64,000 bases of DNA. Source: an uncultured Eubacteriales bacterium (GTDB lineage Bacteria; Bacillota; Clostridia; Oscillospirales; Acutalibacteraceae). The stretch spans positions 33,396 to 97,395 of the forward strand of contig CAYQYT010000002.1 of the NCBI GenBank assembly GCA_964421815.1, given 5' to 3'. The notes below the pieces were generated by a model that was not told where the DNA came from, ran no database searches, and worked only from the letters and a program-made list of their open reading frames with translations. This document shows, one piece after another, positions 16,601 to 47,841 of this stretch (the stretch's first letter is position 1; every line of letters starts with the position of its first letter). The position numbers and the translations under genes are program-made.

Positions 16601-18711
16601 TTACTTTAAACCAAGGTGTAACCTCCGTTACTAACAAGGGTTATGCCGTCGGTATTAAAAATTTGACTTGCGGTATTTCGGGAATTAAATCAATCACCTT
16701 GAACGGTGAGGAATTAGGTGTCGATTCAAGGGCATTTGTAGTTTCCGTAAACGGCGATTATACGGTTAAAGTTACGGCAAATAACGGGCTTTCAACAAGC
16801 GTGACTTTAAATGTCAATAATATTGATAAGGAAGCCCCGGGTATAACCAATATAGAACTTATTCAGGAGCCCGCCGATGCTCCCGAAAGGCATCTTGAGG
16901 GTGAATTCGGCAATTATTACAGCGGCAATCTTGTAGCTGTTGCAACTGCCGAGGATAGCGGTGTTGCAGGTGTTGATTATATAAAATACAGACTTGTTTC
17001 CGCGGATTATACCCCCTTGACATCCTGGGTAGTTATTACGGAGGAAACCCGGGCAGTTTGCGAAAGCAATATGAAAGGCTATTTTGAGTTCGTGGCGGTT
17101 GACAAGGTGGGAAACACATCTTCATCCTATTATTCCGACGGATTTGTACACGACAGTGTCAAACCGGTTATAACAACCATCAATGCCATTTGCGGTGAAG
17201 ATGGGAAGAAGGAATATGAAAGCGGTGAATGGGCGGATGATATGGTTTTCATGTGCCCCCAAGCAGACTCATTCTCGGGAATTTATCAGTATTATTACAA
17301 TATTGACGGAGGCGAGTGGACAAAACTTACAACGGATACTATCCGTGCGAAAGATGACGGAGCATACTGCTATGGTTTCAAGGCTGTTTCCTATTCCGGT
17401 CTTGAAAGTGAAGTCTATGAGTTTGATGTAAATATTGACAGAACCGTTCCCAATGTAAGGGTTGATTTTGAGGGAGTGTCTGGACAATGGACAAAGGACA
17501 ATGTAACTTTCACCCTCAGCACCCTTGTGGATTGTGTGTCGGGATGTGAATATTATTACAATGACGGCACCGGTTGGCATAGGATTGACGGCAATGTGCT
17601 TGTTCTTGATAAAAGTACAAATGCCAACTACACTTTTAAGGCTGTTAACGGCGCGGGACTTGAAAGCGCACCGTCAAACTCCTATAAAATTATGATAGAT
17701 AACATTCAACCCACCGCCCAAATTATTTACGGAGTAACGGAAAAAACGGATGCACCTTACGATATTGCAATAGTTCCCGTTGTGGGAGAATCCGGATACC
17801 TTAAAATATATTTTAACGGTGAGGATGTTACGGAGACTCTTAAAGCTACTGTAAGCAAAAACGGAAGTTATGCGTTGACCGTAATCGGTAACAATATGCT
17901 TTCAAGTACGGTTATGGTTGATATAACAAATTTCAGCACTATTCCTACTTCAAACTTCACATTTGCAAAAATGGACTCCGATTCCCTGACGGTTACAGCA
18001 TACAATGGCTCTGCCGCCAATGTAACGGTGCCCATGGAAAAAGACAGCGTGGAGGTTAAAGCCCTTTCAGATAATGCATTCCTCAATAAAAGCGGAGTTT
18101 CTTCGGTTAATATTCCCAATACTGTTGAAACAATCGGTGACAAGTGTTTTGCAGGCTGTGAAAAGTTGAACAAGATAATTATTCCCGAATCGGTAACGAC
18201 AATTTCCGAAAATGCCTTTGACGATTGCGAAAATGTTACCATATATTGCTATGAGGGGTCATATGCGCAAAGTTTTGCAGAAACTAAAGGAATACCCTAT
18301 GTGCTTCTTGATCTCATTCCTGTGGGCAAAACGGTTATAAATGAAGAGGCGGGAATTATATTCTCACAGCAAGCCTCAAAAACTAATGTTGAAGACATAG
18401 TCAAGGCGGATTCAAGTTATACTGTAATGGCTATTCCGTCGATTGTGAGAGCGGATAGTAATTATTACGGAACAGGCTCTGTGATATATTTCTTCAGAAA
18501 AGGCACTCTCGTATATACATACAATGTTGTAATTTACGGTGATGTAAACGGAGACAGTGTTGTTAATGTTGTTGATGCGTCGATTACCCAGATGGCATCA
18601 GTGAACAAAACAACCCTTGAAGATTTCTATTTACTTGCGGCTGATTTTGAAAGTAACGGAGAGGTCGGTGCGGCTGATTATCAACAAGTTCTGAATCTCG
18701 CATTAAGATAA
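13684..18711 (+). CDS. large surface protein: signal peptide, multiple Big_2-type Ig-like domains, other Ig/Fn3-like modules, BspA-type leucine-rich repeats, C-terminal dockerin
   Basis: 1675 aa. Repeated motifs of the type ...W.S.D..IA.V...G.VT....G.. are present. The LRR segment is NIPNTVETIGDKCFAGCEKLNKIIIPESVTTISENAFDDCENVTIYCYEGS. The dockerin is GDVNGDSVVNVVDASITQ...ADFESNGEVGAADYQQVLNLAL. Confidence 0.8.
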   Translation: MKKFISVILAAALIITYIPVISVFADSVVEIFDDSGVQITDKIYITEYRSEQLSALTPTTNEDSTVSGTEIDTSDGKYVTWESNLPLLADVDDTGKVTAYDFSKRAIIQLWIDENIMSIPLVGEATAKAIWNAIDSSGIDVDNADTDTIVAIVSAIAGEQLGESLRTYLDNMNVVVTATLYDVDGNVLGSDSVEIVVEKSLIASVAPTGVHITNKKTVPTLVAVGAQVQLYGACTPVRLGQGIKWSVGKNAFDTSASNYASVSSDGLVTFLAAGQVTVRVNPESTAYATFSDTITFTVVEQSELPVECFDIVGSTSVAEGETIQLSIDNVVPEGAYRGDLAWSTADPTIAVIDETGIVTGLNGGDGLTYSKTVAITASMGGVQKNVDIKVTRPIVSALTSVEIEGNTVLGLGVTETYTSRVSPDRLNNSSSVNREWGVYDNDTGTVIYATSGSPVTDGIISVDYQGNVTAASAGVGRLYAKATYGSGSVETSMEIVCGNAVTDFEITGKTTVNEGSTTTLSVNVLAPDDYEESLLNTIKWSVEDDSIASVSADGVVLGRDAGGRNSSKSTTVYATISGVTRSATVTVKRGLLALSKFTDGQVEGDDYVIRDIPNSFTMKTYPAELTQSEVRWGLIKDDGSEPWSITANTVRNVNLENEFASVTDDGIVTGKKTGTTTLYGFSRYLLQSHIVRTKEIEIIEIIPDSITLKAPDKLEYVEGETELDLTGMEVYLNYKKESLEPYYSNWESYTDESLRCSVTDYTVSRINTKILDAPQYIIVSVERAGETFNAVFTITLNSKQVDTITITPPSKTVYVEGEKFDSTGLKVIANYLNAESEEVTDYEIDEDSFSMETYDVEQNVRVVYEHVDRSAEATFPIIVYGKPVISVSADGVLGEWTAEDVVLNLDSTHQLDGATYYWRENDSEVWTQIEGSVLTFDSSYDGIIYIKAVNSQGYESDESEPITIKIDKAYPGFTLNQGVTSVTNKGYAVGIKNLTCGISGIKSITLNGEELGVDSRAFVVSVNGDYTVKVTANNGLSTSVTLNVNNIDKEAPGITNIELIQEPADAPERHLEGEFGNYYSGNLVAVATAEDSGVAGVDYIKYRLVSADYTPLTSWVVITEETRAVCESNMKGYFEFVAVDKVGNTSSSYYSDGFVHDSVKPVITTINAICGEDGKKEYESGEWADDMVFMCPQADSFSGIYQYYYNIDGGEWTKLTTDTIRAKDDGAYCYGFKAVSYSGLESEVYEFDVNIDRTVPNVRVDFEGVSGQWTKDNVTFTLSTLVDCVSGCEYYYNDGTGWHRIDGNVLVLDKSTNANYTFKAVNGAGLESAPSNSYKIMIDNIQPTAQIIYGVTEKTDAPYDIAIVPVVGESGYLKIYFNGEDVTETLKATVSKNGSYALTVIGNNMLSSTVMVDITNFSTIPTSNFTFAKMDSDSLTVTAYNGSAANVTVPMEKDSVEVKALSDNAFLNKSGVSSVNIPNTVETIGDKCFAGCEKLNKIIIPESVTTISENAFDDCENVTIYCYEGSYAQSFAETKGIPYVLLDLIPVGKTVINEEAGIIFSQQASKTNVEDIVKADSSYTVMAIPSIVRADSNYYGTGSVIYFFRKGTLVYTYNVVIYGDVNGDSVVNVVDASITQMASVNKTTLEDFYLLAADFESNGEVGAADYQQVLNLALR

Positions 18712-23822: not shown

Positions 23823-24407
23823 TCAGCAATCCTCGTCAGGTGTGAAAGTTATTTTACCGTCACACATACTGTCAACGATTGCTAAAGACCTGACTTTGTA
23901 GCCCTTTTGACGAAGTGCTTTACCGCCGGGCTGGAAGCCCTTTTCAATGGCAATACCGATGCCCACAACCTCTGCACCGGCTTGTCCGATAATGTCAATG
24001 AGAGCATTGCAAGCGTTACCGCCCGCCATAAAATCGTCAATAATTAGCACCTTATCGTTTTCATTAAGGTATTTTTTGGAAATTTTCATTTGATAATCTT
24101 TGCCGTGGGTGAAAGAATAACAGTTGGCGGTATAAACATCGCTACCTACATTTTTGTGGTCGCCCTTTTTGGCAAAGAGGGCGGGGATTCCGAAACGCAG
24201 AGCCGTGGCAACAGCCATTGGGATTCCCGAAGATTCAATGGTGACAACCTTTGTGGCGCCGCAGTCCTTGAACAGTCGGTAAAACTCCTTGCCCATTTCG
24301 TCAATGAGGATGGGATCCACCTGGTGATTGAGGAACATATCCACCTTTAAAATATCGGTACCGATAGCCACGCCGTCCTTAGCGATTCTCTCTTCCAAAA
24401 GTTTCAT
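23823..24407 (-). CDS. xpt: xanthine phosphoribosyltransferase
   Basis: The ORF is trimmed to the internal ATG (MKLLEERIAKDGVAIGTDILKVDMFLNHQVDP), giving 194 aa. The PRPP-binding motif is VLIIDDFMAGGNA. Confidence 0.85.
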   Translation of the reverse strand: MKLLEERIAKDGVAIGTDILKVDMFLNHQVDPILIDEMGKEFYRLFKDCGATKVVTIESSGIPMAVATALRFGIPALFAKKGDHKNVGSDVYTANCYSFTHGKDYQMKISKKYLNENDKVLIIDDFMAGGNACNALIDIIGQAGAEVVGIGIAIEKGFQPGGKALRQKGYKVRSLAIVDSMCDGKITFTPDEDC

Positions 24408-24446
24408 CTGAAAATCTCCCACTCGTTCAAAAAATGTACACAAATC

Positions 24447-24475
24447 ATTATACATATATTGTCGAAATATTGCAA
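24447..24475 (-). promoter_or_regulatory. sigma-A-type promoter of xpt
   Basis: On the minus strand: TTGCAA, 17 nt, TATAAT. The leader is only about 35 nt long. Confidence 0.55.
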
Positions 24476-25033
24476 TAGAAAACCGATACAAAAAATAAAA
24501 TATTTTTTGTCGTAAAAATGTGCAATCGGCAAAGATTGCAGAAGGCTTTTTCGGGTCTTTTGGGTATCGTCAAATTGCACAAATATATTTTTGAAAACGC
24601 TGCAAAAATGCAGAACGAATGTTGTTTTAAGTGTAAAGGTATTTCATTTTACAGGGAAGTTTTTTGCATTTTTCTCTGTGATGCTTTAATGCAATTACTT
24701 CCCGATAAAATAAGGAAAAAATCTTAATAATCGAACAATTTTTCTGCATTTGCGGTTTTGGAGAAAAAACGCAAATTGTAAAGAACATACACTTTACACA
24801 TATAATTGTTAAAAATTCACAATAAACAGCAGATCCATACCGTTTGCCCCGAGGGAATAAAAACCCGGGTAAACATAAAAACAGAGGGAGGGTATCACCT
24901 GTTCCGAGGCTGATAAAATCGCCGGAACGATTACGGCAACTTTTCATCGCAATTCTGAAATCTTCGGCTTTGATTTTATTTCTCAAAATTTCGTAAAAAA
25001 TACCAAAATAATCCACTTTCGGCAAGGGGCTTT

Positions 25034-25044
25034 ACGCACGCGTA
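25034..25044 (+). repeat. left copy of the 11-bp direct repeat ACGCACGCGTA bracketing the structured-RNA element
   Basis: An exact 11-mer recurs at 25675-25685. The flanks also match (TTnACGCACGCGTA). Confidence 0.8.
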
Positions 25045-25084
25045 ACACATTATAAGAAAAAATACATAATTTTCCGCGAAAGTA

Positions 25085-25113
25085 TTGACAAGCAGAGCAG
25101 CATATTGTATTAT
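25085..25113 (+). promoter_or_regulatory. near-consensus sigma-A promoter
   Basis: TTGACA (25085-25090), 17 nt, TATTAT (25108-25113). It lies about 610 nt upstream of the next start codon. Confidence 0.6.
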
Positions 25114-25119
25114 TAGTGT

Positions 25120-25670
25120 GACCATAAGGTTGGGGCAGTGGGGGTATTATACCCTCAAGCCGAAAAGGTCGGTTTTCGGCCTCGGTTTGTGAGGCACAAT
25201 TTCGGTCGGGTGAAACAAACACTCGGGTTTCGGTACGGCGTATGCCGTTTCCGCGGAGAATATCTCCGAATCGTGTGTTTGTTTTGCCCGGGCGGAAAGG
25301 TCAGTACCTCTCCTGTCTTATAAAGTGTGTGGGCGCTAAGTGCACAAAGCGGTGCTGCAGGGTGCAGCAGCGGTGGAGTGCGCGGCGGTCGGTAACGACA
25401 TAACGCTCACCGCTATGCGCTCTGAGCAATTCGGCGCTGTGCACTTTGTAAACGGCCCACGGTTAGTCACATCCTATCGGACGCGGAGTTTTAAACGGCG
25501 GTGGGGGATTTCACTTTTGTTCGGCAAGGTTCTTGCCCTGCCGCCCTTCGGGTGTTATTCTTTTGCCGGTTTTGTCCGGGCTCTGTGTCGTTACGGAAAT
25601 TTATGAAAGGGGGACTGTGCGACAGAAATGTTTTTCCGCAATCGGTGCGTGTTTGCGGTATTCGTTTTTA
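25120..25670 (+). ncRNA. candidate large structured RNA or long structured 5' leader (unclassified)
   Basis: This stretch is visibly more G+C-rich than its AT-rich flanks. Nested helices include GCCGAAAA/TTTTCGGC and CAAACAC(25215)...GTGTTTG enclosing CGGC-gtat-GCCG and CGGAGA-atat-TCTCCG. Others are GTGGGC(25329)...GCCCAC(25460) enclosing GTGCACA...TGTGCAC and GCTGCA-ggg-TGCAGC, plus GGCAAG-gtt-CTTGCC. It ends with the weak terminator-like CCGCAA...TTGCGG tattcGTTTTT (25636-25670). No ORF with an RBS was found. Confidence 0.45.
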
Positions 25671-25674
25671 GTTA

Positions 25675-25685
25675 ACGCACGCGTA
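25675..25685 (+). repeat. right copy of the 11-bp direct repeat ACGCACGCGTA
   Basis: Exact match to 25034-25044, 641 bp away. Confidence 0.8.
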
Positions 25686-25724
25686 TTTTATGTATTGGCG
25701 TACAAAAAATATGGAGGTAAATTT

Positions 25725-28700
25725 ATGAAACAATCCACTAAATTGTTAAGCATGATTCTTGCACTCATAATGGCATTTAGTTGTATGACTGTTATCGGTA
25801 GCGCTACAAAAGAAGACGTTACCAAAGATAAAATGACATATGACTCAGTTGACGACGCTATTCTTAGTGCAGAACAGGCTGCAACAGTTCTTTTCAACTA
25901 TTTGGATGCATCAGTAATGCCCGGCTTGGGTACTGTGGACCTCAGTGTTCTCGGTGAATTGAATCTTACAAGTATCGACAATGCTGTATCATCCATCTAC
26001 AACTTACTTAACAACGGTACTGTAGGTTTTTTGGCTGTTTCGGTAACCGACCTTAAAAACCTGACCGCAGGTAAGAATCTTCTTAAAGGCGTTCAGAGAA
26101 GCGGCGGCGACCTTAATGTAGCCTATGCCCTTTTCAACTACCTTGGAGCAGACGGAACCGTGAAGGTTGTTAAAAAAGCACCCTACGGTCTTCTTACCAG
26201 TAACGGTATTTCCCTCGGTTCACTCCTTAACGGTATAGTCAAGAGCTTCGCTGATATCAGTGAAATCAATGGTATTCTCACAGACATCAACGGTTATGTA
26301 ACCAAGATGGTTTACGACATGCTCATCCACGGCTCCTATAAAGAGGGTTATGAGAACAACAGCTATCCTTCCGCTGAAGATCTCGGCGGCACACTTCCTG
26401 CCGGGTTAACTACTATTGACAGCATAATCGACATGGCTGTTGCAGGTCTTCTTACAAGCCCTCAGGATTATGAATGGGATGAAGTTACACCTACATTGAA
26501 AAATTGGGATATGAATTCCTATGTTATGCCCACATTTGCAAACAACTATACTGCAGCAGATGCGGCAACATATCTCAGCCTTTCAAATCCAAGCAACAGC
26601 ATTTTTGCTCTTCTTGACAAAGTTGCTCCCTATGCAATTTATGACCTTGGTATCAATCCTCTTAACAACAACCTCAAGAAAGCTCTCTTTGACGCTGTTG
26701 AGGCAGAGACTAAAGAAATTGATATAAGCAAGGTTCCCGCAGATGCTAAAACAGCATTTGAAGCCGACAAGGAAGATGGTACTGAAAGTTATATAACATA
26801 CATCTCATACGACAAAATCTTCAAGAGCAGCGACGGTGAGTGGTATTATACAACTCTCAAGAACTCAGAGAAAATCGGTTCTAACGGTGAGCCGGAGACT
26901 GATAAAGACGGCAATGTAGTTATTGAAAAGGTTCGTAAATATTACAGAATCAACACTGCGTCTGCAAACTCTTTCTTCGATCTCATTAACTGGGATTGGA
27001 ACATTACTGCTCCCAACCCCGTTAACGGTACAGCAACCGGAGCAATCAATGAACTTGATTATGCAGGACTTATCAGCCAATACGGTTCAATCACTCAGGC
27101 TCTTAACCATCTTGTATATATCGTTGCTGAAAACGCACTTTCCGACTATGCAGGAAAGTACTTTAACGAAGTAGTTTACGGTGATGCAGAGGCAGGTAAC
27201 CCCATCTGGAAAGACGGAGCTACATCCGCGGCAGAAGGTAATTCAACCGTATTCCTTAAAAACGTTGAGCGCATCGTTAAATTCCTTCTTGCGGAATATG
27301 CAGATAAGATTTTCGGTGAGGATTCACCCTATGTTGCTTGGGAATATTCAGATGTTGAAAATATGACTCTTGTTGAGCTCATTGCACACATCGGTCCCAC
27401 ATTCTTTGAGGATGCAATGCCCCAGCTTATCATGCCCAAGGATGAAAATGGCTTGGTAGCATTCCACGACGGTGTTCAGATTCTTGAATTCGGTGCAATT
27501 GTAATCCGTGAGTTTATGACTGAAATTACTCCCGATGTCAACTACGATGCACAGATTTTTGCAGCAGGCACATTGACCTCTGCAGGAGGCAGACAGTTCG
27601 CGAGTCATTCCGCAGACGAATGGTTCGACCTTATTCTTAATATGGGTATGGACATTGCCTACACATATCTCAACCAGATTACAAACTTCAACACTGCTAT
27701 TCCTGCACAGGAAATCACAGCAACACGTTGGCAGGGTATGCTTGACAACGCAATCCTTTGGGCTGTTGGCTACGTAAGCAGCGCGGACGGTGCAAACGGC
27801 GTTCTTAAAGGCATTTCAAAGAATGAAGTTAGCGCAATTACCGGTCCTCTCAATAAGCTCAGCTACATCTTAAACACAATCCTTCCTCTTGAATTTGTTA
27901 ACGGATGCACAACCGCAGCTTATGACCTTGACGTTGAAGTACTGTTTAACAAGGTTAAAGATCTCTTCCAGAACTTCAACCTTGATACAATTGTTAGTCT
28001 CTTCGGACGTAACACAGACCCAAACACCTACAACATTCTTAACACAGGTGACGTTGTTACAACCCTTCTTGATGTTGTAGATAACATTCTTGCTCTTGTG
28101 CTCAGAGCCCAACTTCTCGGCACACACGAAAGTGTTAACGCTCTGCTTCAGAGTGATAACCTCAGCACGGTAATCGCAAATCTTCTTAACCAGCTTGAAG
28201 CAAGTGCACCTGCTCTTCTTACAAGTGCTCTTCCCGTAGTTTGTAAGCTTATTCCCGATTTGGGCGGCGAACAGGAACTCGGTGAACCCAGCATCGGTCT
28301 CAGAACTACTGTTGGTCTTAACAACGGTGCTTCTCCCACGGATAAAGACACGGGAGCTGTTAAAACCACTTTCATGATTACAAACGGTTCAACAGGTCTT
28401 TGGAGAGGTTATAAGGACGCAAGCGGCAACACTCAGAATGATAACCATTACAAATACCAGATTACCGATGTAAAGGCTTATAACTATGATGGTTCTGCTT
28501 CACCCTATATTACAAACATAACTCTTAGTGCCAAAGAACTTGACTACAGCCAAGCAGCAACAGTTACTTATACAGTTGCCAACGTAACCGACCCCGGTGT
28601 CATTGTCAGATTCGACGTATCATATAAGGTTCTTGATGAAGACGGCAATGCTCTTGCTAATAAGACGTTTGTAAAGTCATCCTATGCATGGTTGAGTTAT

Positions 28701-31226
28701 TACGAAAGTTCCGATGAAGGTACCAGAACTTTCTTGTTTGACGGATCAAACTGGGCGGGCGATAACCTTAGGTTTGGTACTAAATCACCCCAATATCTTG
28801 ATATAGATAATATAGAATCCGATATTGAGAATACAGCTCCTGCATTTATATTGTTTGATAACCCGACAAAGAGACTTAACGGATACAACGTTACGGCTAC
28901 ACCTTTTGACGGTATAACACCCGGTACTGCAGACAAGGGTTCCAGTGACTACTTGGGTTCGGGTACAAAGAGAGAATTCCCGAATATTTATCTCTTTAAA
29001 GACGGTACCTACGTTTGTGAAGGCGGTAAAACAGAAGGCGACAGAAGCATCACGGTTACCGGCGCATCTTTCAACCGTGCTGCTTGGGAAGCTGCAAACA
29101 GAAAAGAAGGCAACGAAACCAAAACGTCTGTAACGATCACGTGTAAACCGGGTAGCAATACTGAGACAAAAACCGGCGATGTAATAATTAAGTATTACAG
29201 CTCTGTAAATGCTTCCAAGCTCTTATCTCTTGTTAATGACGAAGCTAAAATTCAGAGAACAACGGATATGTATCATAATGACAACACTACCTACTATGCT
29301 GACAGACTCCTTCGTACAACGGAAGTAAGCGAAGACCTTCTTAAAGAAACCACAAGCACAGGAACTGCTTGGATTGATGACGATAAGAATGTATATGCTG
29401 AGTCACAGGTTACAAATATCGTTACCACCAACTATAAAGTTAACGGAAAAGATACCGGAATCGTTGAATCCGAGACCGGTACGGTAGTTAGCGGTGATAC
29501 AAAGATTGCTGTTAAAAAGGTTACAACACTTAACGGTGCAGATGTTTGGAACAGATACAGGGCCAACCTTGAAATCGGTATGCGCGGTGCATGGCAGATT
29601 AAGTGGCGTACAGAATCACTCTTCAACCAGGGAGAACTTTACAAAAACCTTTATATCTCTGCAACAGAAGTTCAGTTCCTTAAATTAACTGACCTTGAGC
29701 TTGCAGCAACCGGCGGTGCAGGCCTTGACAGTGCAGTTGATGCACTCGAAGCACAGCTTGACGCTGTTGAAGCTCAGTACAGCGATACTCAGGACTATAC
29801 TGATTATATGATGTATAGATGGAACCGTTACAACACAGTAAGAGAGGACGCAAGATCAATCGTTGATAAGAAGAAGGCAGCTGCTCCCTCAGCACCCGAT
29901 TCTAAGTTCTTCCCCTACTCAGGTGTAACAGAAACAGAAATTAAGGGTATTTTGTCAAATTCAGCAAACGCAGGTATTATCGGCAGCTATGTGGGCGGTA
30001 CTGATGATGGAAACTTCATCTCCGCACTTCTTGAGGATTATACCGCTGAAGAGATGCTTGTACGTAACAAAGAACTCGAAAATGCAAAGAGCAGATATGC
30101 AAACGTTTCCGCTCTTGACGTTGCACAGGCATCGAACCTTCTTAACAGAATCCCCGCAAGACTCATTGTACGTTATAAAGATGCAAGCGGTAACAAGACT
30201 GTTGTTAAAACACACCTTGCTAACGAAATTGCTTCCGCAAATGCAATGATCGGCAAAGTGAACGTAGATGAATTCGGCGATCCCAAATACACAGATCGTA
30301 GCTGGAGCAGATATGAAAAAGCTCTTGCAGCTGCTGAAGCTTTAAATGCTGATGCTAAGGCAACACAGATGCAGATCTTTGACACTAAGTGGGAACTTCT
30401 TATTGCACGTAACGGTCTTGTACTTCTTGCTGACGAGGCTGATTACAGCGAACTTGAAGAACTCATTGCACAGGCTAAGAATGCACTTGCACATCAGGAT
30501 CTCTATGACAACACTGCTAAAGATTTTGGTGCAGTTCTTGCAGAACTCGGCTTTGGTTATGATGAAGAGGGCGAGGCTATTAAGGTTGCTCTTGCAAACG
30601 GCGATAAGGTAGATCTCTTCCCCGGTTCCGCAGAAGAAGTTAACCATAAGGGTTACGACTGGACCGATCAGAAGAAGATTGACCGTGCAGCAACAGCTCT
30701 TAAAGAAGCTCTTGCAAAACTCAAATTCAAAGATTCAAATGTTGGATTTGCAGATGGCTCCGATACAGTCAAAGACATCGTTCTTGTTGAAGCAGACGAG
30801 AAAGCAGGCATTGAAGAAGTTAAACTCAGCAGTGTTGCAAAAATCGGCGCTAAGCTTGATGCAGCAGCTGTTAAGGCTCTCTTCACAGCAACCGGTTCAG
30901 AAGATGCTATCGTTTCTGCAGACGTTAACTACTCTGCAGCACAGTATGATGTTGACGGCTTTGTTGGTACAAACGCAACAATTACTTACTACAAAACTAT
31001 CGACGAAGTTAAAGTTCCCGTTGCAACAATTAAACTTGTTGTTGAAGGTGACGTAAACGGCGACGGTGTTGTTAATGTACTTGACGCAAGTATCGTACAG
31101 GTTGTTTCAACTGAGCATGCTGAACTTGAAGGTGCATACCTTGTAGCAGGTAACATGGTTGGCGACATTACAGCCGGCATCGATAGAGATGACTATCTCC
31201 AGGTTGTTAACAAAGTTCTTGCATAA
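25725..31226 (+). CDS. very large secreted protein with FIVAR-like helical modules and a C-terminal dockerin
   Basis: The ORF is trimmed to the ATG at 25725 (RBS GGAGGT 6 nt upstream), giving 1833 aa. The signal peptide is MKQSTKLLSMILALIMAFSCMTVIGSA. A FIVAR-like segment reads YTDRSWSRYEKALAAAEALNADAKATQMQIFDTKWELLIARNGL. The dockerin is GDVNGDGVVNVLDASIVQ...GDITAGIDRDDYLQVVNKVL. Confidence 0.8.
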   Translation: MKQSTKLLSMILALIMAFSCMTVIGSATKEDVTKDKMTYDSVDDAILSAEQAATVLFNYLDASVMPGLGTVDLSVLGELNLTSIDNAVSSIYNLLNNGTVGFLAVSVTDLKNLTAGKNLLKGVQRSGGDLNVAYALFNYLGADGTVKVVKKAPYGLLTSNGISLGSLLNGIVKSFADISEINGILTDINGYVTKMVYDMLIHGSYKEGYENNSYPSAEDLGGTLPAGLTTIDSIIDMAVAGLLTSPQDYEWDEVTPTLKNWDMNSYVMPTFANNYTAADAATYLSLSNPSNSIFALLDKVAPYAIYDLGINPLNNNLKKALFDAVEAETKEIDISKVPADAKTAFEADKEDGTESYITYISYDKIFKSSDGEWYYTTLKNSEKIGSNGEPETDKDGNVVIEKVRKYYRINTASANSFFDLINWDWNITAPNPVNGTATGAINELDYAGLISQYGSITQALNHLVYIVAENALSDYAGKYFNEVVYGDAEAGNPIWKDGATSAAEGNSTVFLKNVERIVKFLLAEYADKIFGEDSPYVAWEYSDVENMTLVELIAHIGPTFFEDAMPQLIMPKDENGLVAFHDGVQILEFGAIVIREFMTEITPDVNYDAQIFAAGTLTSAGGRQFASHSADEWFDLILNMGMDIAYTYLNQITNFNTAIPAQEITATRWQGMLDNAILWAVGYVSSADGANGVLKGISKNEVSAITGPLNKLSYILNTILPLEFVNGCTTAAYDLDVEVLFNKVKDLFQNFNLDTIVSLFGRNTDPNTYNILNTGDVVTTLLDVVDNILALVLRAQLLGTHESVNALLQSDNLSTVIANLLNQLEASAPALLTSALPVVCKLIPDLGGEQELGEPSIGLRTTVGLNNGASPTDKDTGAVKTTFMITNGSTGLWRGYKDASGNTQNDNHYKYQITDVKAYNYDGSASPYITNITLSAKELDYSQAATVTYTVANVTDPGVIVRFDVSYKVLDEDGNALANKTFVKSSYAWLSYYESSDEGTRTFLFDGSNWAGDNLRFGTKSPQYLDIDNIESDIENTAPAFILFDNPTKRLNGYNVTATPFDGITPGTADKGSSDYLGSGTKREFPNIYLFKDGTYVCEGGKTEGDRSITVTGASFNRAAWEAANRKEGNETKTSVTITCKPGSNTETKTGDVIIKYYSSVNASKLLSLVNDEAKIQRTTDMYHNDNTTYYADRLLRTTEVSEDLLKETTSTGTAWIDDDKNVYAESQVTNIVTTNYKVNGKDTGIVESETGTVVSGDTKIAVKKVTTLNGADVWNRYRANLEIGMRGAWQIKWRTESLFNQGELYKNLYISATEVQFLKLTDLELAATGGAGLDSAVDALEAQLDAVEAQYSDTQDYTDYMMYRWNRYNTVREDARSIVDKKKAAAPSAPDSKFFPYSGVTETEIKGILSNSANAGIIGSYVGGTDDGNFISALLEDYTAEEMLVRNKELENAKSRYANVSALDVAQASNLLNRIPARLIVRYKDASGNKTVVKTHLANEIASANAMIGKVNVDEFGDPKYTDRSWSRYEKALAAAEALNADAKATQMQIFDTKWELLIARNGLVLLADEADYSELEELIAQAKNALAHQDLYDNTAKDFGAVLAELGFGYDEEGEAIKVALANGDKVDLFPGSAEEVNHKGYDWTDQKKIDRAATALKEALAKLKFKDSNVGFADGSDTVKDIVLVEADEKAGIEEVKLSSVAKIGAKLDAAAVKALFTATGSEDAIVSADVNYSAAQYDVDGFVGTNATITYYKTIDEVKVPVATIKLVVEGDVNGDGVVNVLDASIVQVVSTEHAELEGAYLVAGNMVGDITAGIDRDDYLQVVNKVLA

Positions 31227-31419
31227 GTAATTTGAAATGTTTAAAATCCATTGACTGAAAAAACTCTCCTGCCGAGAAATCGGCAGGAGGGGAAGTTGAA
31301 AACTGCATACCATTTATATATATAATATATGGGTGTTTCAGATTTCCGCAGTCAATCGGTGCAGTCGAAAGACTGTTGTTTGGAGAGAATTTGAAAAAAT
31401 TACTCAAGGAGGCAAACAA

Positions 31420-32517
31420 ATGTCTAAAAAAATTATTAGTGTTATGCTTGCCCTTGTACTTGTTCTTTCAACATTGGCAACTGTTGCTTTTGCAGCAGGC
31501 GTTACCTTTGAAGAATTGGACGCAGAAGGTTTAAGCACAAATACACAAACTTGGTCCCTTGGTGAACCAAAAGATAACGGAGACGGCACATATTCCGTTG
31601 ATGTTACTCTTACCACAAACTACCCCACAGGTGCAATTCAGTTTCTTGTTGAAGAAACCGACCCTGACAACGCTATTACACTCACGGGTGTAACAGTTGG
31701 TTCGGCTATCACTTATGATGCTGAAGCAAGTAAAAACTCTTCAGGTCTTGTAGTTATCGTTCCGCAGACAACTGCAGATACCAGTTTGATTACCGCACCG
31801 GTAATTGATGGTGTTGTTGCAACCCTTACCTACACTTATGCAGGTAGCGGTTCTGCACAGATTGCTATCAAAAACGATCCTTTTAACGAGGAGAATGCAG
31901 CCGGTACTCTTATTGCAGCACGTATGGGCAACGGTAACATTGTTGGCACAGATTTCATTGCAGGCCAGACAGTTTTGTCAACAGGCGAAGCAAAAACAAT
32001 CGGTGCAGCAGGCAAACCCGAACTTGTTGTAAAAGCAGGTACAAACGGTGCTATTAACGATACTTACAAATGCGTTTACGGTATAGATGTTATGGATGCA
32101 GGCGAAACCCTTAGCGATGTATTTGAAGTTACCAACGGCGGTTCCTTTGTGGTAACACCCAGTGTTGAAGGTGTGGAAGAAGGAACGGGCGCTGTTATTA
32201 CTGTTTATTCCGGTCCCAACGGTACGGGCAGTGTTATCGGCGAATATACCGTAGTTATTCACGGTGATGTAAACGGTGACGGTTCTGCTGACTCACTTGA
32301 TGCCAGCATTCTTTGTGAGTTTGAAATTGGATTTATATCTGATTTCAGTGCTTACGGTATCTCTGATGATATAGCATTCATCGCCGGCGATGTTAACGCA
32401 GATGGCGGTGCTGATAGTCTTGATGCAAGTATTATTTGTGAGTTTGAAATTGGCTTCTTAGAAAATCTCTATGATATTACAACTCTTCCCGGAGACCTTG
32501 CAACTGTTTGGTGCTGA
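31420..32517 (+). CDS. secreted protein with a cohesin-like N-terminal module and an atypical twin-segment dockerin
   Basis: Trimmed to the ATG at 31420 (RBS AAGGAGG), giving 365 aa with a signal peptide. The cohesin-like pattern is YSVDVTLTTNYPTGAIQFLVEE. The C-terminus has two almost identical 23-aa segments, DVN(G/A)DG(S/G)ADSLDASI(L/I)CEFEIGF. Confidence 0.6.
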   Translation: MSKKIISVMLALVLVLSTLATVAFAAGVTFEELDAEGLSTNTQTWSLGEPKDNGDGTYSVDVTLTTNYPTGAIQFLVEETDPDNAITLTGVTVGSAITYDAEASKNSSGLVVIVPQTTADTSLITAPVIDGVVATLTYTYAGSGSAQIAIKNDPFNEENAAGTLIAARMGNGNIVGTDFIAGQTVLSTGEAKTIGAAGKPELVVKAGTNGAINDTYKCVYGIDVMDAGETLSDVFEVTNGGSFVVTPSVEGVEEGTGAVITVYSGPNGTGSVIGEYTVVIHGDVNGDGSADSLDASILCEFEIGFISDFSAYGISDDIAFIAGDVNADGGADSLDASIICEFEIGFLENLYDITTLPGDLATVWC

Positions 32518-32574
32518 TTTTTAGTTTATATATTTTGTAAATAATTTAATTTAATAGTTTTAGGAGGCACAAAA

Positions 32575-33660
32575 ATGTCTAAAACAAAAAAAGTACTTAG
32601 CCTTGTAATGGCTATTGCACTTATGTTCAATGTTTTGGCAATTGCGTCATCTGCTGCTTGTGCAGACGGTAAATTAGTCGGTTTTACTGCAGAGTCAGCT
32701 GATAAGCTTGTTGCCGGTGGTACAGTAACTGTGGATTTTTATATTGAACTTCCTGCAGGTACTGACTACACAACGTATAAACTCGGTTTGTTCCAGTTAA
32801 TTGTTTCTTATAATAAAGATATCTTGACCCCCGTTACAAGAACATGGGGCGATACTTATGCAGAGTTTATGGCACCTACTAACGGATTTAATACAACCAC
32901 CTCTACTGTTCACGGTTGGATTTCATCTTATCTCACAACAGAAGAGGCGCCAAAATATACCGGTTCTTGTGCAATTGCCGGTAGCCAAGTTGATAATACC
33001 AATTCCTATGGATATACGGGTTCAACCGGTTATTGCATTAAATCATTAAAAGATAAGATGTTTTCAATCACTTTCAAAGTTGCGGATACTTACGACGGAA
33101 CATCTTCCGCAGATGTTGCTATTCTTCAGAATTCTTTCCAGAATGCAACAAGAGCTTACTTGCGTGATATTACCGGTAATGGCGGTAGTAAACTCAACAA
33201 AAATGGTTCACAGGTTGACTGGTCTGATAGTGCTGTTACATTGACTGCAGCTGCATCTGCAACTCCCTCTGTAGCTCATGATAAAACAATGGGTCAGATG
33301 AAGAGCTGGGCATCTTTGACAGGTCCCTTCAACGGCGGTTTGGTTGGTAGAATTTCTAACCTTCCTTTGACCTTTGATGAAAATGACAACTGTAACGAAA
33401 TTAAAAAGATTGAAGTTACTATCGCAACTACCGATGGTTCAACAACTGCTGAAGCATATACTGTTTACAAACAGGCAGACGGTTCATATCTCTTCCGTGC
33501 TGTAATCAAAAATATGACTATCACAGATGAAGAAACATTAACATGCACTTATGCTGTTACAAAGGCTGACGATACAGTTATCTACAGTGATCCTTTTACA
33601 ACAACAGCAAAACAGATGTATGACACAGCACTTGCTAATTACACAGCAGCAAATCCGTAA
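32575..33660 (+). CDS. secreted cohesin-like domain protein
   Basis: 361 aa with RBS AGGAGG and a signal peptide ending ASSAACA. The N-terminal module GGTVTVDFYIELPAGTDYTTYKLGLFQLIVSYNKDILTPV follows the cohesin beta-sandwich pattern. No dockerin is present. Confidence 0.5.
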   Translation: MSKTKKVLSLVMAIALMFNVLAIASSAACADGKLVGFTAESADKLVAGGTVTVDFYIELPAGTDYTTYKLGLFQLIVSYNKDILTPVTRTWGDTYAEFMAPTNGFNTTTSTVHGWISSYLTTEEAPKYTGSCAIAGSQVDNTNSYGYTGSTGYCIKSLKDKMFSITFKVADTYDGTSSADVAILQNSFQNATRAYLRDITGNGGSKLNKNGSQVDWSDSAVTLTAAASATPSVAHDKTMGQMKSWASLTGPFNGGLVGRISNLPLTFDENDNCNEIKKIEVTIATTDGSTTAEAYTVYKQADGSYLFRAVIKNMTITDEETLTCTYAVTKADDTVIYSDPFTTTAKQMYDTALANYTAANP

Positions 33661-36933: not shown

Positions 36934-37058
36934 ATATATGTATATTGTCTTATTGTGTTTAATAGGCGATTTATAAAATGGATTTGTATAATTATTACAT
37001 AATTCCTAATTGATTAAATTATTTTTAGGTAATTATATACTGATTTGGAGGCTTGTTT

Positions 37059-39424: not shown

Positions 39425-39449
39425 AAACTTTTCATTTGGAGTGACTGAA

Positions 39450-40538: not shown

Positions 40539-40571
40539 TAAATATTTTTATTATCCAAAGGGGGCAGACTA

Positions 40572-41771: not shown

Positions 41772-41814
41772 ACTGTATTAAAAATCAAAAATCCTTCGCA
41801 AAGGAGCAGATATA

Positions 41815-43415: not shown

Positions 43416-43430
43416 GGAGAGGAGACGTTT

Positions 43431-47800: not shown

Positions 47801-47841
47801 GGCATATTCTCTATTATATTGATTAAGAAAGGATTGATTAA

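What the first reader, a model, noticed from the sequence alone, without database searches (positions are those of the whole stretch)
24492..25724. Promoter-driven, G+C-rich, hairpin-dense element of about 550 nt flanked by 11-bp direct repeats in a 1.2-kb gene-free gap: candidate large structured RNA
The gap between xpt and the 1833-aa dockerin gene is far larger than any other intergenic region here. Its right half differs sharply in composition from the AT-rich surroundings. A near-consensus promoter (TTGACA, 17 nt, TATTAT at 25085-25113) would start transcription about 600 nt before the next start codon.

The transcript can form many nested helices:
- a three-way junction at 25215-25283;
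- a multi-stem domain at 25329-25460 closed by GTGGGC/GCCCAC and GTGCACA/TGTGCAC;
- several GC-rich hairpins;
- a weak terminator-like hairpin plus U-run at 25636-25670.

The whole unit is bracketed by exact direct repeats ACGCACGCGTA (25034 and 25675). That pattern fits an insertion with target duplication, or recombination sites. The internal ORFs (61 and 88 aa) lack an RBS and look like by-products of G+C-rich sequence.

I did not find the universally conserved motifs of RNase P RNA (GAGGAAAGTCC), tmRNA ends, a T-box, a cobalamin box or a purine riboswitch. It could be a member of a large ornate RNA class, a new class, or an unusually long regulatory leader for the surface-protein gene.
Basis: partly seen in the sequence, partly recalled or inferred. 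Interest (0 to 1): 0.75.

Follow-up and report, generated by a model that had tools for sequence, protein, structure and literature searches.

The report
New large structured mRNA leader
The G+C-rich stretch is the promoter plus a roughly 600-base, intricately folded and unusually conserved untranslated leader of the messenger RNA for a giant cell-surface protein; it matches no catalogued RNA family, and in related bacteria the whole unit sits on a DNA segment that is found in either orientation.

Summary
It comprises a near-consensus promoter (25085-25113), the most G+C-rich stretch of the window, dense helices and an exact 11-nt direct repeat.

The element is a new, clade-specific structured RNA: the 5' leader (about 25120-25724) of the 1833-aa dockerin protein mRNA.
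- It lies at the same syntenic place (ABC-Bmp-xpt | gap | giant gene) in 24 distinct loci of Acutalibacteraceae MAGs, whose giant proteins are only 35-53% identical (tblastn best segment, against the window's protein).
- Conservation starts at the predicted transcription start and runs unbroken into the Shine-Dalgarno sequence. Invariant runs reach 19 nt, against 6 nt in xpt.
- A consensus fold has 97.6% of cells paired. Twenty pairs show compensatory changes (0 of 500 shuffles reach this), and three sequences not used to derive it keep the helices.
- G-U asymmetry places the structure on the sense strand.
- There is no Rfam match, no conserved ORF, and no other copy in the window or in phage, plasmid or viral collections.

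The direct repeat is not a target-site duplication. Its right copy is part of the invariant 3' RNA block.

In relatives, the promoter-leader cassette lies between long inverted copies of the gene's 5' end and is flipped in three lineages. The window lacks such repeats, so it appears locked ON.

The function, probably cis-regulation of the surface-protein gene, is inferred and not shown.

The parts
25031..25044 (.). Left CG-rich motif (TTTACGCACGCGTA), which includes the left 11-nt 'direct repeat'. It lies about 75-90 nt upstream of the predicted transcription start and marks the distal edge of the conserved promoter region.
   Evidence: The repeat is exact. A CGYRCGCGTA-like, alternating CG-rich patch sits at the same offset in 21 of 22 homologous loci. 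Sequence further upstream is unrelated between lineages.
25045..25084 (+). A+T-rich stretch between the CG motif and the -35 hexamer. It may act as an UP-element-like or regulator-binding region.
   Evidence: It is partly conserved (ATTATATAATAAAAATACATAATTTT-like) in the alignments. Any function is inferred.
25085..25113 (+). Sigma-70-type promoter: TTGACA, a 17-nt spacer, then TATTAT preceded by TG.
   Evidence: It matches 11 of 12 positions. TTGACA/TTGACT and TGTATTAT (TGTATCAT in L041/L042; a more diverged -10 in L021), with 17-18 nt spacing, are kept in all loci where the leader start was found. The spacer and the 6 nt after the -10 vary.
25120..25724 (+). The structured 5' leader (5' UTR) of the giant dockerin-protein mRNA, as a whole. 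The predicted +1 is at or next to G25120 of the conserved GACCAUAAGG.
   Evidence: - Homologs lie directly upstream of the orthologous gene in 24 distinct loci.
- Alignment A4 has 21 sequences.
- It is a single copy in the window.
25120..25324 (+). 5' domain.
- Invariant 5' end.
- Hairpin H3 (25139-46/25150-57).
- Hairpin H4 (25168-71/25177-80).
- A long arm, H5 (25191-97/25304-10), H6 (25201-04/25293-96) and H7 (25208-13/25284-89), closed by the long-range helix H2 (25131-38/25313-20).
   Evidence: - H4-H7 carry compensatory changes, with up to 10 double-changed cells per pair.
- In L050, which was not used to derive the fold, H7 has 6 of 6 pairs formed, 4 of them double-changed relative to the window.
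- The arm is shortened in L038 and L041 and absent in L049.
25326..25463 (+). Central domain, a roughly 135-nt irregular hairpin with invariant stems and internal loops.
- H8: UGUGGGC/GCCCACG (25328-34/25455-61).
- H9: 25339-50/25434-45.
- H10: 25354-65/25417-27.
- H11: 25369-72/25411-14.
- The distal tip (25384-25404 in the window) varies in length between lineages.
   Evidence: - MFE -72.2 kcal/mol, z = -4.25.
- The helices are 97.6-100% paired across 21 sequences, but almost only one-sided changes occur.
- Two mutually exclusive alternatives each have some covariation. One is UAUAAAGUG (25319-27) with CACUUUGUA (25441-49). The other is a local hairpin at 25354-68.
25464..25594 (+). Variable linker. 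In the window it is a long, lineage-specific hairpin that includes a terminator-like site at 25542-25564. In most homologs it is a single short hairpin of variable sequence, set between AUCC and UUUUCGGAAAU.
   Evidence: The stems differ in sequence but are perfectly paired in each lineage.
25595..25724 (+). 3' domain, nearly invariant.
- GGAAAUUUAUGAAAGGGGGAC.
- GUGCG (25617-21).
- Covarying hairpin H16 (25636-44/25650-58) with an invariant GUGCG loop.
- U-run (25663-25669).
- Right 'direct repeat' ACGCACGCGTA (25675-85), whose CGCAC (25676-80) can pair with either GUGCG.
- Invariant hairpin H17 (25682-95/25700-13), which abuts the SD GGAGG (25713-17).
   Evidence: - H16 has 4 pairs with double changes and 99.4% of cells paired. 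It is kept with new compensatory changes in L049, L050 and L023.
- In the divergent L021, the sequence shows GGUGCGU between complementary segments (CCUUAUCC/GGGUAAGG). I read this as the same hairpin with a different stem; it was not folded. L021 also keeps CGCAC, H17 and the SD.
- Invariant runs of 19, 15 and 13 nt lie here.
25725..31226 (+). Gene served by the leader: a 1833-aa secreted protein with a C-terminal dockerin-like segment and no Pfam or PDB match.
   Evidence: - Translation is.
- 156 mostly full-length homologs were found.
- Pfam and PDB gave nothing.
- The dockerin-type motif GDVNGDG appears in the consensus.
23823..24407 (-). xpt (xanthine phosphoribosyltransferase-like), the conserved left neighbour. 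Its own promoter-like site is at 24475-24447 (-).
   Evidence: Synteny is shown.
24408..25030 (.). A+T-rich left half of the gap. It is not part of the conserved element and evolves faster.
   Evidence: Strains about 95% identical over the gap are about 99% identical in the leader, so the differences and indels concentrate in the left half. No relic of an inverted copy of the gene's 5' end was detectable here.

Best explanation
**What it is.** The element is one transcription unit's front end: a sigma-70-type promoter followed by a roughly 605-nt, highly structured 5' untranslated leader of the giant dockerin surface-protein mRNA. It is the founding example of an uncatalogued RNA family restricted, as far as seen, to a clade of Acutalibacteraceae.

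**Shown.**
- The position, orthology and synteny of the element.
- Conservation that begins at the predicted +1 and runs into the SD.
- A consensus fold with compensatory changes in the 5' arm (H4-H7) and the 3' hairpin (H16).
- Sense-strand specificity.
- Absence of coding potential.
- Peripheral stems vary around an invariant core.

**Inferred.**
- The RNA acts in cis, after transcription initiation, to set how much of the surface protein is made.
- The invariant core (5' end, central domain, 3' block) is a binding platform for an unknown partner, either a protein or a small molecule.
- Its folding state is passed on through mutually exclusive helices. CACUU pairs with either of two AAGUG copies. 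CGCAC pairs with either of two GUGCG copies.
- The output goes to the H16 hairpin plus U-run (attenuation), to hairpin H17 next to the SD (translation or mRNA stability), or to both.

**Relatives.** In many relatives the whole promoter-leader cassette, with or without the SD, ATG and first codons, lies between long inverted copies of the gene's 5' end. It occurs in both orientations, which adds an ON/OFF phase switch. The window's genome has no inverted copy and is fixed in the ON orientation.
For: **Orthology and synteny.**
- nhmmer finds the leader once per locus, directly upstream of proteins only 35-53% identical to the window's (tblastn best segment), with E-values from 1e-90 to 1e-184.
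- The neighbourhood ABC-Bmp-xpt(-) | gap | giant gene(+) is conserved.

**Promoter and start.** The -35 and -10 are kept in all loci, the spacer and discriminator vary, and invariance begins at GACCAUAAGG.

**Constraint.** Across the same 16 genomes the leader has invariant runs of 19, 15, 15, 15 and 13 nt. xpt never exceeds 6 nt. Strains 95% identical over the gap are 99% identical in the leader.

**Structure.**
- The RNAalifold consensus has 104 pairs.
- 97.6% of cells are paired. Twenty pairs and 88 cells show changes on both sides. Shuffled means are 11.9 pairs and 26.9 cells, and 0 of 500 shuffles reach the observed values. Slid controls give at most 12 pairs and 26 cells.
- The out-of-sample sequences L049, L050 and L023 keep the helices with new compensatory changes.

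**Strand.** There are 321 G-U cells against 11 A-C cells. Pairing is 97.6% on the sense strand and 83.3% on the antisense strand.

**Not coding.** Frameshifts and stops break both internal ORFs in the homologs, and the AUG at 25601 is not conserved.

**Cis link to the gene.**
- The invariant block is continuous through GGAGG and AUG.
- No promoter-like site on the + strand was found between 25113 and the ATG.
- The cassette flips as a unit in L018, L029 and L039.

**Alternative helices.** Both alternatives are about 97-99% paired with some covariation. In five homologs the alternative fold lies 2-7 kcal/mol above the MFE.
Against: - There is no expression data. The transcription start, the extent of the transcript and any termination at H16 are predictions.
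- The core helices (H8-H10, H13, H17) are invariant, so covariation cannot test them. Their conservation could reflect a sequence-specific partner, or even a DNA-level role, rather than pairing.
- The consensus structure was derived from the same 21 related sequences used to count pairs. Phylogenetic non-independence inflates the shuffle test. Only three sequences served as an independent check.
- H16 is weak (-8.8 kcal/mol). It is separated from the U-run by a spacer, and the terminator scan did not call it.
- In the window itself the alternative fold costs about 22 kcal/mol.
- No ligand, binding protein or regulator gene is identified. All homologs come from MAGs of one family.
Confidence: 0.65

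Rival explanations
1. Passive leader. The structured 5' UTR senses nothing. It stabilises a very long, highly expressed mRNA, offers processing sites, or boosts translation initiation, as the long 5' UTRs of S-layer and ompA-type genes do.
For: - The gene encodes a giant secreted surface protein.
- The invariant hairpin H17 abuts an A/U-rich strong SD region.
- A clean terminator/antiterminator pair could not be defined.
- The 5' arm is dispensable in L049, L041 and L038.
Against: - Stabiliser hairpins need structure, not sequence. Here about 225 positions are invariant, in runs of up to 19 nt and including loops and bulges.
- The predicted 5' end is single-stranded for about 10 nt, not a protective terminal hairpin.
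- Mutually exclusive helices with covariation suggest switching.
Confidence: 0.2
2. Free-standing large non-coding RNA (OLE/ROOL/GOLLD-like). It would end at the H16/U-run terminator (about 25670), act in trans, and merely share a promoter with the downstream gene through read-through.
For: - Its size (388-722 nt; about 880 nt in the divergent L021) and its invariant core with variable peripheral stems are typical of ornate RNAs.
- A covarying hairpin followed by a conserved U-run lies about 55-90 nt before the ATG.
Against: - The most conserved block lies after the U-run and runs into the SD and ATG.
- No promoter-like site on the + strand lies between the leader promoter and the ATG.
- The element is never seen away from this gene and occurs once per locus.
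- In L012, L013, L029 and L039 the inverted repeats start at or downstream of the ATG, so the gene's start codon is carried on the invertible segment with the element. In L022 and L015 the SD and ATG lie inside the repeat arms.
- It matches no Rfam model.
Confidence: 0.12
3. Cis-acting processive antitermination RNA (put- or EAR-like, or the target of a NusG paralogue). It would modify RNA polymerase so that it reads through the 5.5-kb gene and the genes downstream.
For: - The leader precedes an exceptionally long gene followed by co-directional conserved genes.
- Invertible promoters followed by long leaders and NusG-like antiterminators are known for Bacteroides capsule loci (established knowledge).
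- C/U-rich (CACUCCU)n inserts in half of the homologs resemble Rho-loading sites (inference).
Against: - No NusG/LoaP-like gene is recognisable in the window by Pfam.
- Known put and EAR RNAs are 70-120 nt, not 600 nt.
- Terminators inside the operon were not examined.
Confidence: 0.1
4. DNA-level element. This could be a mobile insertion with target-site duplication, or a cassette excised or recombined at the 11-bp direct repeats.
For: - An exact 11-nt repeat brackets promoter plus leader.
- CG-rich motifs related to it are conserved at both ends in the homologs.
- The region does rearrange in relatives.
Against: - The element sits at the same syntenic site in all loci. There are no empty sites, no second copy, no transposase or integrase in the window, and no phage, plasmid or viral hits.
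- The right repeat is inside an invariant RNA block.
- The full 11-mer is present on the left only in the window and its close strains.
- Inversions in relatives use 33- to 230-bp inverted copies of the gene's 5' end, and both 11-mer-like motifs lie inside the flipped segment.
- Compensatory changes and G-U asymmetry point to RNA.
Confidence: 0.03
5. Protein-coding: one of the internal ORFs (61 aa, 88 aa, or the 22-codon ORF from 25601) is a real small gene.
For: The ORFs exist in the window.
Against: In 19 other lineages the homologous stretches differ in length by non-multiples of 3 and have early stops. The AUG at 25601 is replaced in L018, L037, L039, L043, L046 and L047. Variable inserts interrupt both ORFs.
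Confidence: 0.01

Closest known systems
Large ornate bacterial RNAs (OLE, ROOL, GOLLD, HEARO, raiA)
   Same: - Several hundred nucleotides long.
- G+C-rich relative to the genome.
- Blocks of invariant nucleotides embedded in a multi-helix fold, with lineage-specific insertions at hairpin tips.
- Found in anaerobic Firmicutes from gut or rumen.
- Function unknown.
   Different: - No covariance-model match, even at E <= 10.
- It is not a free-standing gene. It is fused to the SD and ATG of one particular gene, always upstream of that gene's orthologs (on the opposite strand in three loci where the cassette is flipped).
- Its taxonomic range is very narrow.
Riboswitch, T-box and protein-dependent attenuator leaders
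   Same: - The layout is promoter, conserved structured domain, hairpin plus U-run, then SD.
- Stems covary and junctions are invariant.
- Mutually exclusive helices share one strand.
   Different: - It is two to five times longer than typical riboswitch leaders.
- No known aptamer or specifier motif is present (Rfam negative).
- A terminator/antiterminator pair is not cleanly definable.
- The regulated gene is a surface protein of unknown function, so no ligand suggests itself.
Phase-variable invertible switches of surface structures (Clostridioides difficile cwpV and flgB switches, Bacteroides capsule promoters, E. coli fimS)
   Same: In relatives, a DNA segment upstream of a large surface-protein gene lies between inverted repeats and is found in both orientations. 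As in the C. difficile switches (PMC7446863, PMC5914908), a long leader is involved.
   Different: - The repeats here are long (33-230 bp), diverged copies of the gene's own 5' end, sometimes in two or three copies. They are not short recombinase sites.
- The flipped segment carries the promoter plus a roughly 600-nt structured RNA and often the start codon.
- No recombinase lies nearby.
- The window itself has no inverted repeat.
Long 5' UTR mRNA stabilisers of S-layer and outer-membrane protein genes
   Same: A long structured leader precedes an abundant secreted surface protein, with a hairpin next to a strong SD.
   Different: The nucleotide invariance far exceeds what a stabilising hairpin needs, and the 5' terminus is predicted to be unpaired.
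Processive antitermination RNAs (phage HK022 put, Bacillus EAR) and NusG-paralogue leaders
   Same: A cis-acting RNA at the head of an unusually long transcription unit.
   Different: It is five to eight times larger. No NusG paralogue was recognised nearby, and no sequence similarity was found.

Membership tests
Any Rfam 15 family (ROOL, GOLLD, OLE, HEARO, raiA, 6S, RNase P, tmRNA, T-box, purine and cobalamin riboswitches, ribozymes, introns) | A match to the family covariance model at its gathering score | tested here: not met
   The only hit in the window is Gut-1 at 36702-36772. Nothing lies within 25100-25700 even at E <= 10. No hit falls in the leaders of 11 homologous loci.
Cis-regulatory structured leader (riboswitch or attenuator kind) | It lies between a promoter and the regulated ORF on the same strand, in conserved association with that ORF | tested here: met
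   The promoter is conserved. The leader is directly upstream of the orthologous gene in 24 distinct loci.
Cis-regulatory structured leader (riboswitch or attenuator kind) | A conserved secondary structure supported by compensatory changes | tested here: met
   Twenty of 104 pairs show double changes, and 0 of 500 shuffles reach this. Slid controls score far lower. An out-of-sample check agrees. The structure is sense-strand specific. The core helices are invariant and cannot be tested.
Cis-regulatory structured leader (riboswitch or attenuator kind) | An expression platform: an intrinsic terminator or SD-sequestering helix with a mutually exclusive alternative | tested here: inconclusive
   - H16 plus the U-run is conserved and covaries, but it is weak and the scan did not call it.
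- H17 abuts the SD but leaves it unpaired.
- Alternative helices exist in the central domain, but a link to the platform is only inferred.
Cis-regulatory structured leader (riboswitch or attenuator kind) | A specific ligand or protein partner that changes the fold and the output | not testable with these tools
   This needs in-line or SHAPE probing, pull-downs or reporter assays.
Invertible phase-variation switch (inverton) | Inverted repeats flank the segment | tested here: not met
   - Window: no inverted copy of 25650-26300 exists anywhere in the 64 kb, and there is no relic in the gap.
- Relatives: the feature is met. Repeats of 33-230 bp with 73-100% identity occur in L010, L012, L013, L015, L018, L022, L024, L029, L037, L039, L040, L046 and L047.
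Invertible phase-variation switch (inverton) | Both orientations occur | tested here: inconclusive
   - The window and its five close strains all have the ON orientation.
- Across relatives the cassette is flipped in L018, L029 and L039, which belong to three different sub-lineages.
- Both orientations within one population were not tested. Contig breaks at the gene's 5' end in at least 7 assemblies are only suggestive.
Invertible phase-variation switch (inverton) | A site-specific recombinase acts on the repeats | tested here: inconclusive
   Pfam detected no recombinase among 30 large window ORFs, and none appears in the gene lists around the relatives. It could be encoded elsewhere, or RecA could act on the long repeats.
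Mobile insertion with target-site duplication | Direct repeats lie at both ends | tested here: met
   ACGCACGCGTA occurs at 25034 and 25675. However, the right copy lies inside the conserved RNA.
Mobile insertion with target-site duplication | Copies at other sites, empty sites in relatives, and a mobility gene | tested here: not met
   The element is single-copy. It is present at the same site in all ortholog loci with upstream sequence. No transposase or integrase was found, and there are no phage, plasmid or viral matches.
Small protein-coding gene | The reading frame is conserved across homologs | tested here: not met
   Frameshifts and premature stops occur in nearly all homologs.

The most novel reading that the evidence does not exclude
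The leader may be a new class of very large riboregulator. Its invariant core (about 300 nt) would bind a cellular signal, for example a second messenger that controls surface architecture, or a dedicated protein. It would toggle between two folds, marked by the duplicated AAGUG and GUGCG strands that compete for single CACUU and CGCAC partners, to gate transcription or translation of a giant surface protein. In relatives this RNA switch is nested inside a DNA inversion switch, giving two-tier (stochastic plus responsive) control of one surface antigen. A more extreme variant, that the core is catalytic, is not excluded either.
Probability: 0.25. Interest if true: 0.85.

Novelty: new variant of a known kind. 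Interest (0 to 1): 0.68.

Why it matters
**Rarity.** Bacterial structured RNAs longer than 400 nt are rare, and several known classes (OLE, ROOL, GOLLD) still have no established biochemical function.

**An RNA with an obvious read-out.**
- It is fused to a single gene, so reporter fusions can test directly what the fold does.
- Natural minimal versions (388-459 nt) and lineage-specific inserts already map what is dispensable.
- Invariant runs longer than anything in the neighbouring housekeeping gene point to a specific, still unknown partner.

**Biology of the host clade.**
- It marks the main surface protein of an uncultured gut and rumen clade (Acutalibacteraceae) that bears dockerins and therefore builds cellulosome-like surface complexes.
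- In relatives this protein appears to be phase-variable, through an unusual inversion that uses copies of the gene's own 5' end.
- This bears on phage and host interactions, and it explains why MAG assemblies break at this locus.

**If the function turns out to be passive.** The element would then be an ordinary, if extreme, 5' UTR.

Tried and rejected
- **Known RNA families.** cmscan of the window at gathering thresholds, of 24400-25800 at E <= 10, and of 11 homologous loci found nothing in the element.
- **Repeat or mobile element.**
  - blastn of the element against the window found no other copy.
  - An nhmmer profile against the window and all 50 loci found one copy per ortholog locus, plus short inverted copies of its 3' end in L015, L022, L039 and L040.
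  - blastn against phages and plasmids, and a pattern scan of viral contigs, found nothing.
- **Wider distribution.** An exact-pattern scan of metagenome contigs with a core motif gave only two loci, L036 and L037. This limits the alignment depth.
- **Inverted repeat in the window.**
  - blastn of 25650-26300 against the whole window gave no inverted copy.
  - tblastn of the N-terminus against the gap gave a best E-value of 0.66.
  - A profile HMM of the family's N-terminus against the six-frame translation of the gap gave nothing.
  - The idea that the A+T-rich left half is a decayed inverted copy is therefore rejected.
- **Coding.** The 61-aa and 88-aa ORFs are not conserved.
- **Anti-SD idea.** UACCUC (the 3' strand of H5) is complementary to the SD GAGGUA. 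In L012 and L013, however, H5 covaries to GUCUU/AAGGC and loses that complementarity, so the idea is rejected.
- **Linker hairpin as a universal terminator.** Most homologs have a hairpin followed by 3-5 U, but L046, L049 and L050 lack the U-run. It is not conserved as a terminator.
- **Regulator or recombinase next door.** Pfam on 30 large window ORFs found no recombinase, NusG paralogue or RNA-binding regulator.
- **Identity of the giant protein.** It has no Pfam or PDB match.
- **Same-species pairs with opposite orientation.** None were among the fetched loci.
- **Literature.** Four searches found no description of this leader or of inversion at this locus. The Limousia mucinolysome paper (PMC12997984) concerns other Acutalibacteraceae and does not mention it.


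Full report

Yes, with small corrections.
- xpt starts at the ATG at 24407, not at the TTG-extended ORF end of 24491. The gene-free gap is therefore 24408-25724 (1317 nt). It is the largest gap between ORFs of at least 150 aa inside the window.
- The right half of the gap has 51-57% G+C. The left half has 30-38% and the window averages 42%. 25101-25500 is the most G+C-rich stretch of all 64 kb.
- TTGACA-17-TATTAT at 25085-25113 matches 11 of 12 positions and is the best promoter-like site in the region.
- ACGCACGCGTA occurs exactly twice in the window, at 25034 and 25675. One 11-mer pair in 1.4 kb is not significant on its own.
- The + strand RNA folds better than shuffles: -250.9 kcal/mol, z = -5.0. 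The central domain alone has z = -4.25.
- Rfam finds nothing in the element, even at E <= 10.

**2. Homologs.**

- The exact xpt protein led to five near-identical strains. Their gap is about 95% identical to the window overall but about 99% identical across the element, so the A+T-rich left half carries the differences.
- The 1833-aa protein has 156 mostly full-length relatives. In the best-120 listing their identity to it ranges from 100% down to 37%.
- A scan of representative genomes plus look-ups of individual orthologs gave loci in Acutalibacteraceae MAGs from ruminant and other animal guts. They share the neighbourhood ABC transporter-Bmp-xpt(-) | gap | giant gene(+).
- nhmmer with the window element, and later with a profile, finds it exactly once in every locus that includes sequence upstream of the giant gene, directly in front of that gene. 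E-values range from 1e-90 to 1e-184.
- Beyond the window and its near-identical strains (L001-L005), that makes 24 distinct loci. L023 is cut off at its 5' end. L021 is a divergent version that keeps only the first 35 nt or so, a GGUGCGU-containing stretch, and the last 55 nt or so.
- A core-pattern scan of metagenome contigs added only two loci. Phage, plasmid and viral collections gave nothing.
- The window has a single copy.

**3. Pattern of conservation.**

- In all loci the -35 (TTGACA/T) and the TG-extended -10 (TGTATTAT) are kept with 17-18 nt spacing.
- The spacer and the six bases after the -10 vary freely. Invariance begins at GACCAUAAGG, the predicted +1. This is the signature of a promoter followed by a functional transcript.
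- Conservation then alternates between invariant blocks and variable-length inserts. It ends in an invariant run through GUUAACGCACGCGUAUUUU, UGUAUUGGCGUAC and AAAAUAUGGAGGUAA to the AUG.
- Across the same 16 genomes the leader has invariant runs of 19, 15, 15, 15, 13, 13, 12 and 10 nt. xpt is 74-94% identical to the window but never exceeds 6 nt, because its third codon positions vary.
- The giant gene itself aligns at only 66-75% where it aligns at all.
- Leader length ranges from 388 nt (L049) and 456-459 nt (L038, L041) to 722 nt (L029).

**4. Structure.**

RNAalifold on the 21-sequence alignment A4 gives 104 consensus pairs. Counting them gives:
- 97.6% of cells are standard pairs.
- Twenty pairs and 88 cells have changes on both sides.
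- Shuffled means are 11.9 pairs and 26.9 cells, and 0 of 500 shuffles reach the observed values on any measure.
- Sliding the partners by 1-3 columns drops pairing to 34-53%, and double-changed cells to at most 26.

Support by helix:
- Support is concentrated in the 5' arm (H4, H5, H6, H7) and the 3' hairpin H16.
- The central-domain helices (H8-H11), H13 and H17 are almost invariant. They show only one-sided, pair-preserving changes, so they are compatible with pairing but untested by covariation.
- The fold was derived from the same sequences, so I checked three sequences not used to derive it. L050 keeps H7 (6 of 6 pairs, 4 double-changed relative to the window) and H16 (8 of 8, 3 double-changed). 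L049 and L023 keep H16, and L049 adds a C-G to U-A change in H2.
- There are 321 G-U cells and only 11 A-C cells. The same pairs on the antisense strand would be only 83.3% paired. The structure therefore belongs to the sense RNA and agrees with the promoter's direction.

Coding potential:
- The 61-aa and 88-aa ORFs are broken by frameshifts and stops in the homologs.
- The AUG at 25601 is not conserved.

**5. Anatomy in window coordinates.**

- **5' domain, 25120-25324.** It has a single-stranded invariant 5' end, hairpin H3 and hairpin H4. A long arm (H5-H6-H7) is closed by the long-range helix H2 (25131-38 with 25313-20). The arm is shortened in L038 and L041 and absent in L049.
- **Central domain, 25326-25463.** It is an irregular hairpin closed by UGUGGGC/GCCCACG and AGUGCACA/UGUGCACU. 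Its distal tip varies and carries (CACUCCU)4-5 in half of the lineages.
- **Variable linker, 25464-25594.** In most homologs this is one short hairpin of free sequence between AUCC and UUUUCGGAAAU.
- **3' domain, 25595-25724.** In order it contains GGAAAUUUAUGAAAGGGGGAC, a GUGCG, the covarying hairpin H16 with loop GUGCG, a U-run, ACGCACGCGUA, and the invariant hairpin H17 next to GGAGG (25713-17). The AUG is at 25725.

Two sets of mutually exclusive pairings stand out.
- CACUU(UGUA) at 25441-49 can pair with AAGUG at 25323-27, extended by UAUA. Two of those pairs have compensatory changes and 98.9% of cells are paired. Alternatively it can pair with AAGUG at 25338-42, which is H9. In five homologs the alternative fold lies 2-7 kcal/mol above the MFE; in the window the cost is about 22 kcal/mol.
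- CGCAC at 25676-80 can pair with either of two GUGCG pentamers. L021 and L018 keep only the loop copy intact, which favours a hairpin-loop pseudoknot.

**6. The direct repeats.**

- The right copy lies inside the invariant 3' block and is part of the RNA.
- The left copy is the window's version of a CG-rich, alternating purine-pyrimidine patch (CGYRCGCGTA-like). It lies about 75-95 nt upstream of +1, is present in 21 of 22 loci, and marks the distal limit of conservation.
- The full 11-mer match is confined to the window and its close strains. L041 has 10 of the 11 nt.
- No second copy, empty site or mobility gene exists.
- A target-site duplication is therefore rejected.
- A shared DNA-binding factor at both motifs remains possible but untested.

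**7. What relatives add: an inversion switch.**

- In L029, L018 and L039 the whole promoter-leader unit, with the SD, AUG and first codons, lies on the opposite strand, pointing at xpt.
- In L029 the gene body is left without its start codon (ATA in place of ATG).
- These three loci belong to different sub-lineages.
- Thirteen loci carry inverted repeats of 33-230 bp, 73-100% identical, between the giant gene's 5' end and one to three upstream inverted copies. The 5'-end arm lies anywhere from -30 to +490 relative to the ATG.
- At least seven assemblies break within -60 to +420 nt of the ATG. Two more contigs end inside a repeat arm. That is what mixed orientations in a sample would cause.
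- This fits phase-variable expression of the surface protein.
- The window, its strains, and L025, L027, L038, L041 and L043 have no inverted copy. The window is fixed in the ON arrangement.
- No recombinase lies nearby. The long repeats could recombine through RecA (inference).

**8. Most likely mechanism and rivals.**

Best-supported reading (0.65):
- The element is a cis-acting, structured 5' leader that controls the giant gene after initiation.
- The identity as a structured leader is well supported.
- Gating through a core-bound partner, alternative helices, H16 plus U-run attenuation and/or SD-proximal H17 is inference.

Rivals:
- A passive stabiliser or translation enhancer (0.2).
- A free-standing ncRNA ending at the U-run (0.12). 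It is disfavoured because the strongest conservation lies after the U-run and no second promoter exists.
- A processive antitermination RNA (0.1).
- A DNA-level or mobile element (0.03).
- A coding region (0.01).

**9. Comparison with known systems.**

- In size and style it resembles OLE, ROOL or GOLLD, but it fails every covariance model and is not free-standing.
- In layout it resembles riboswitch and attenuator leaders, but it is several times larger and has no recognisable aptamer.
- The inversion in relatives works like the C. difficile cwpV and flgB switches or Bacteroides promoter switches (PMC7446863, PMC5914908). It differs in using long copies of the gene's own 5' end and in carrying a 600-nt RNA.
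- Four literature searches found no prior description.

**10. Caveats.**

- All evidence is comparative and comes from MAGs of one family.
- Only 24 related sequences are available.
- The core pairings cannot be tested.
- There are no expression data.
- The structure-derivation and shuffle tests are not fully independent.

Noticed in passing
L029:2694-4060; L039:2611-4220; L018:1-849; also L010, L012, L013, L015, L022, L024, L037, L040, L046, L047: In relatives, the promoter-leader cassette lies between 33- to 230-bp inverted copies of the giant gene's 5' end, sometimes 2-3 copies. It is flipped in three lineages, which is a likely phase-variation switch. In L029 the gene body then lacks its ATG. 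In the flipped state the promoter points at the xpt-Bmp-ABC operon on the same strand.
   Followed up: partly
L011, L014, L016, L017, L019, L020, L048 (contig starts); L010 and L018 (contig ends inside a repeat arm): Many MAG and metagenome contigs end within -60 to +420 nt of the giant gene's start codon. Mixed orientations, or repeats, in the sampled populations would produce this.
   Followed up: partly
window 36702-36772 (-): A Gut-1 RNA (RF01706, 56.7 bits against a gathering score of 50) lies in the 608-nt gap before ORF 37053-37580. It is the only Rfam hit in the window.
   Followed up: no
window 37628-52866 (+): A type IV pilus or type II secretion-like cluster follows: LysM/secretin-N protein, two T2SSE ATPases, T2SSF, PilM, PilO and an N-methyl prepilin-like protein. 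It also contains two large proteins without Pfam hits (630 and 1265 aa).
   Followed up: no
window 13684-18711 (+): A second giant dockerin protein (1675 aa; LRR_5, Big_2, Dockerin_1) has no copy of the leader upstream.
   Followed up: partly
alignment A4 columns 520-570 (L010, L012, L013, L015, L024, L029, L036, L039, L040, L043, L046) and columns 655-700 (L015, L029, L040): Lineage-specific inserts sit at hairpin tips. A C/U-rich (CACTCCT)4-5 tract, which looks anti-SD-like or Rho-loading-like, lies in the central domain. An (AATGCAA)n tract lies in the linker.
   Followed up: no
window 23823-24600 (-) and homologous loci: xpt here has no purine riboswitch or other Rfam element upstream. Only a promoter-like site is present, at 24475-24447.
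   Followed up: no
L021:3123-4003: This is a divergent leader of about 880 nt. It keeps only the 5' 35 nt or so, a GGUGCGU flanked by complementary segments (apparently the H16 loop with a different stem; not folded), CGCAC, hairpin H17 and the SD. These parts may be the functionally essential ones.
   Followed up: partly
window 25597-25608 and 25719-25730: The 12-nt direct repeat AAATTTATGAAA means the leader block GGAAAUUUAUGAAAGG mimics the true start region. The two copies can pair in the window's MFE, but the ATG of the first copy is not conserved in the homologs.
   Followed up: partly
window 31333-33660 (+) and homologous loci: Conserved co-directional genes follow the giant gene. In the window they are a 394-aa dockerin protein and a 361-aa protein without Pfam hits. 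In relatives they are followed by very small ORFs (about 64 and 34 aa), DUF559 and NTP_transf_5 genes. They may form an operon with the giant gene.
   Followed up: no
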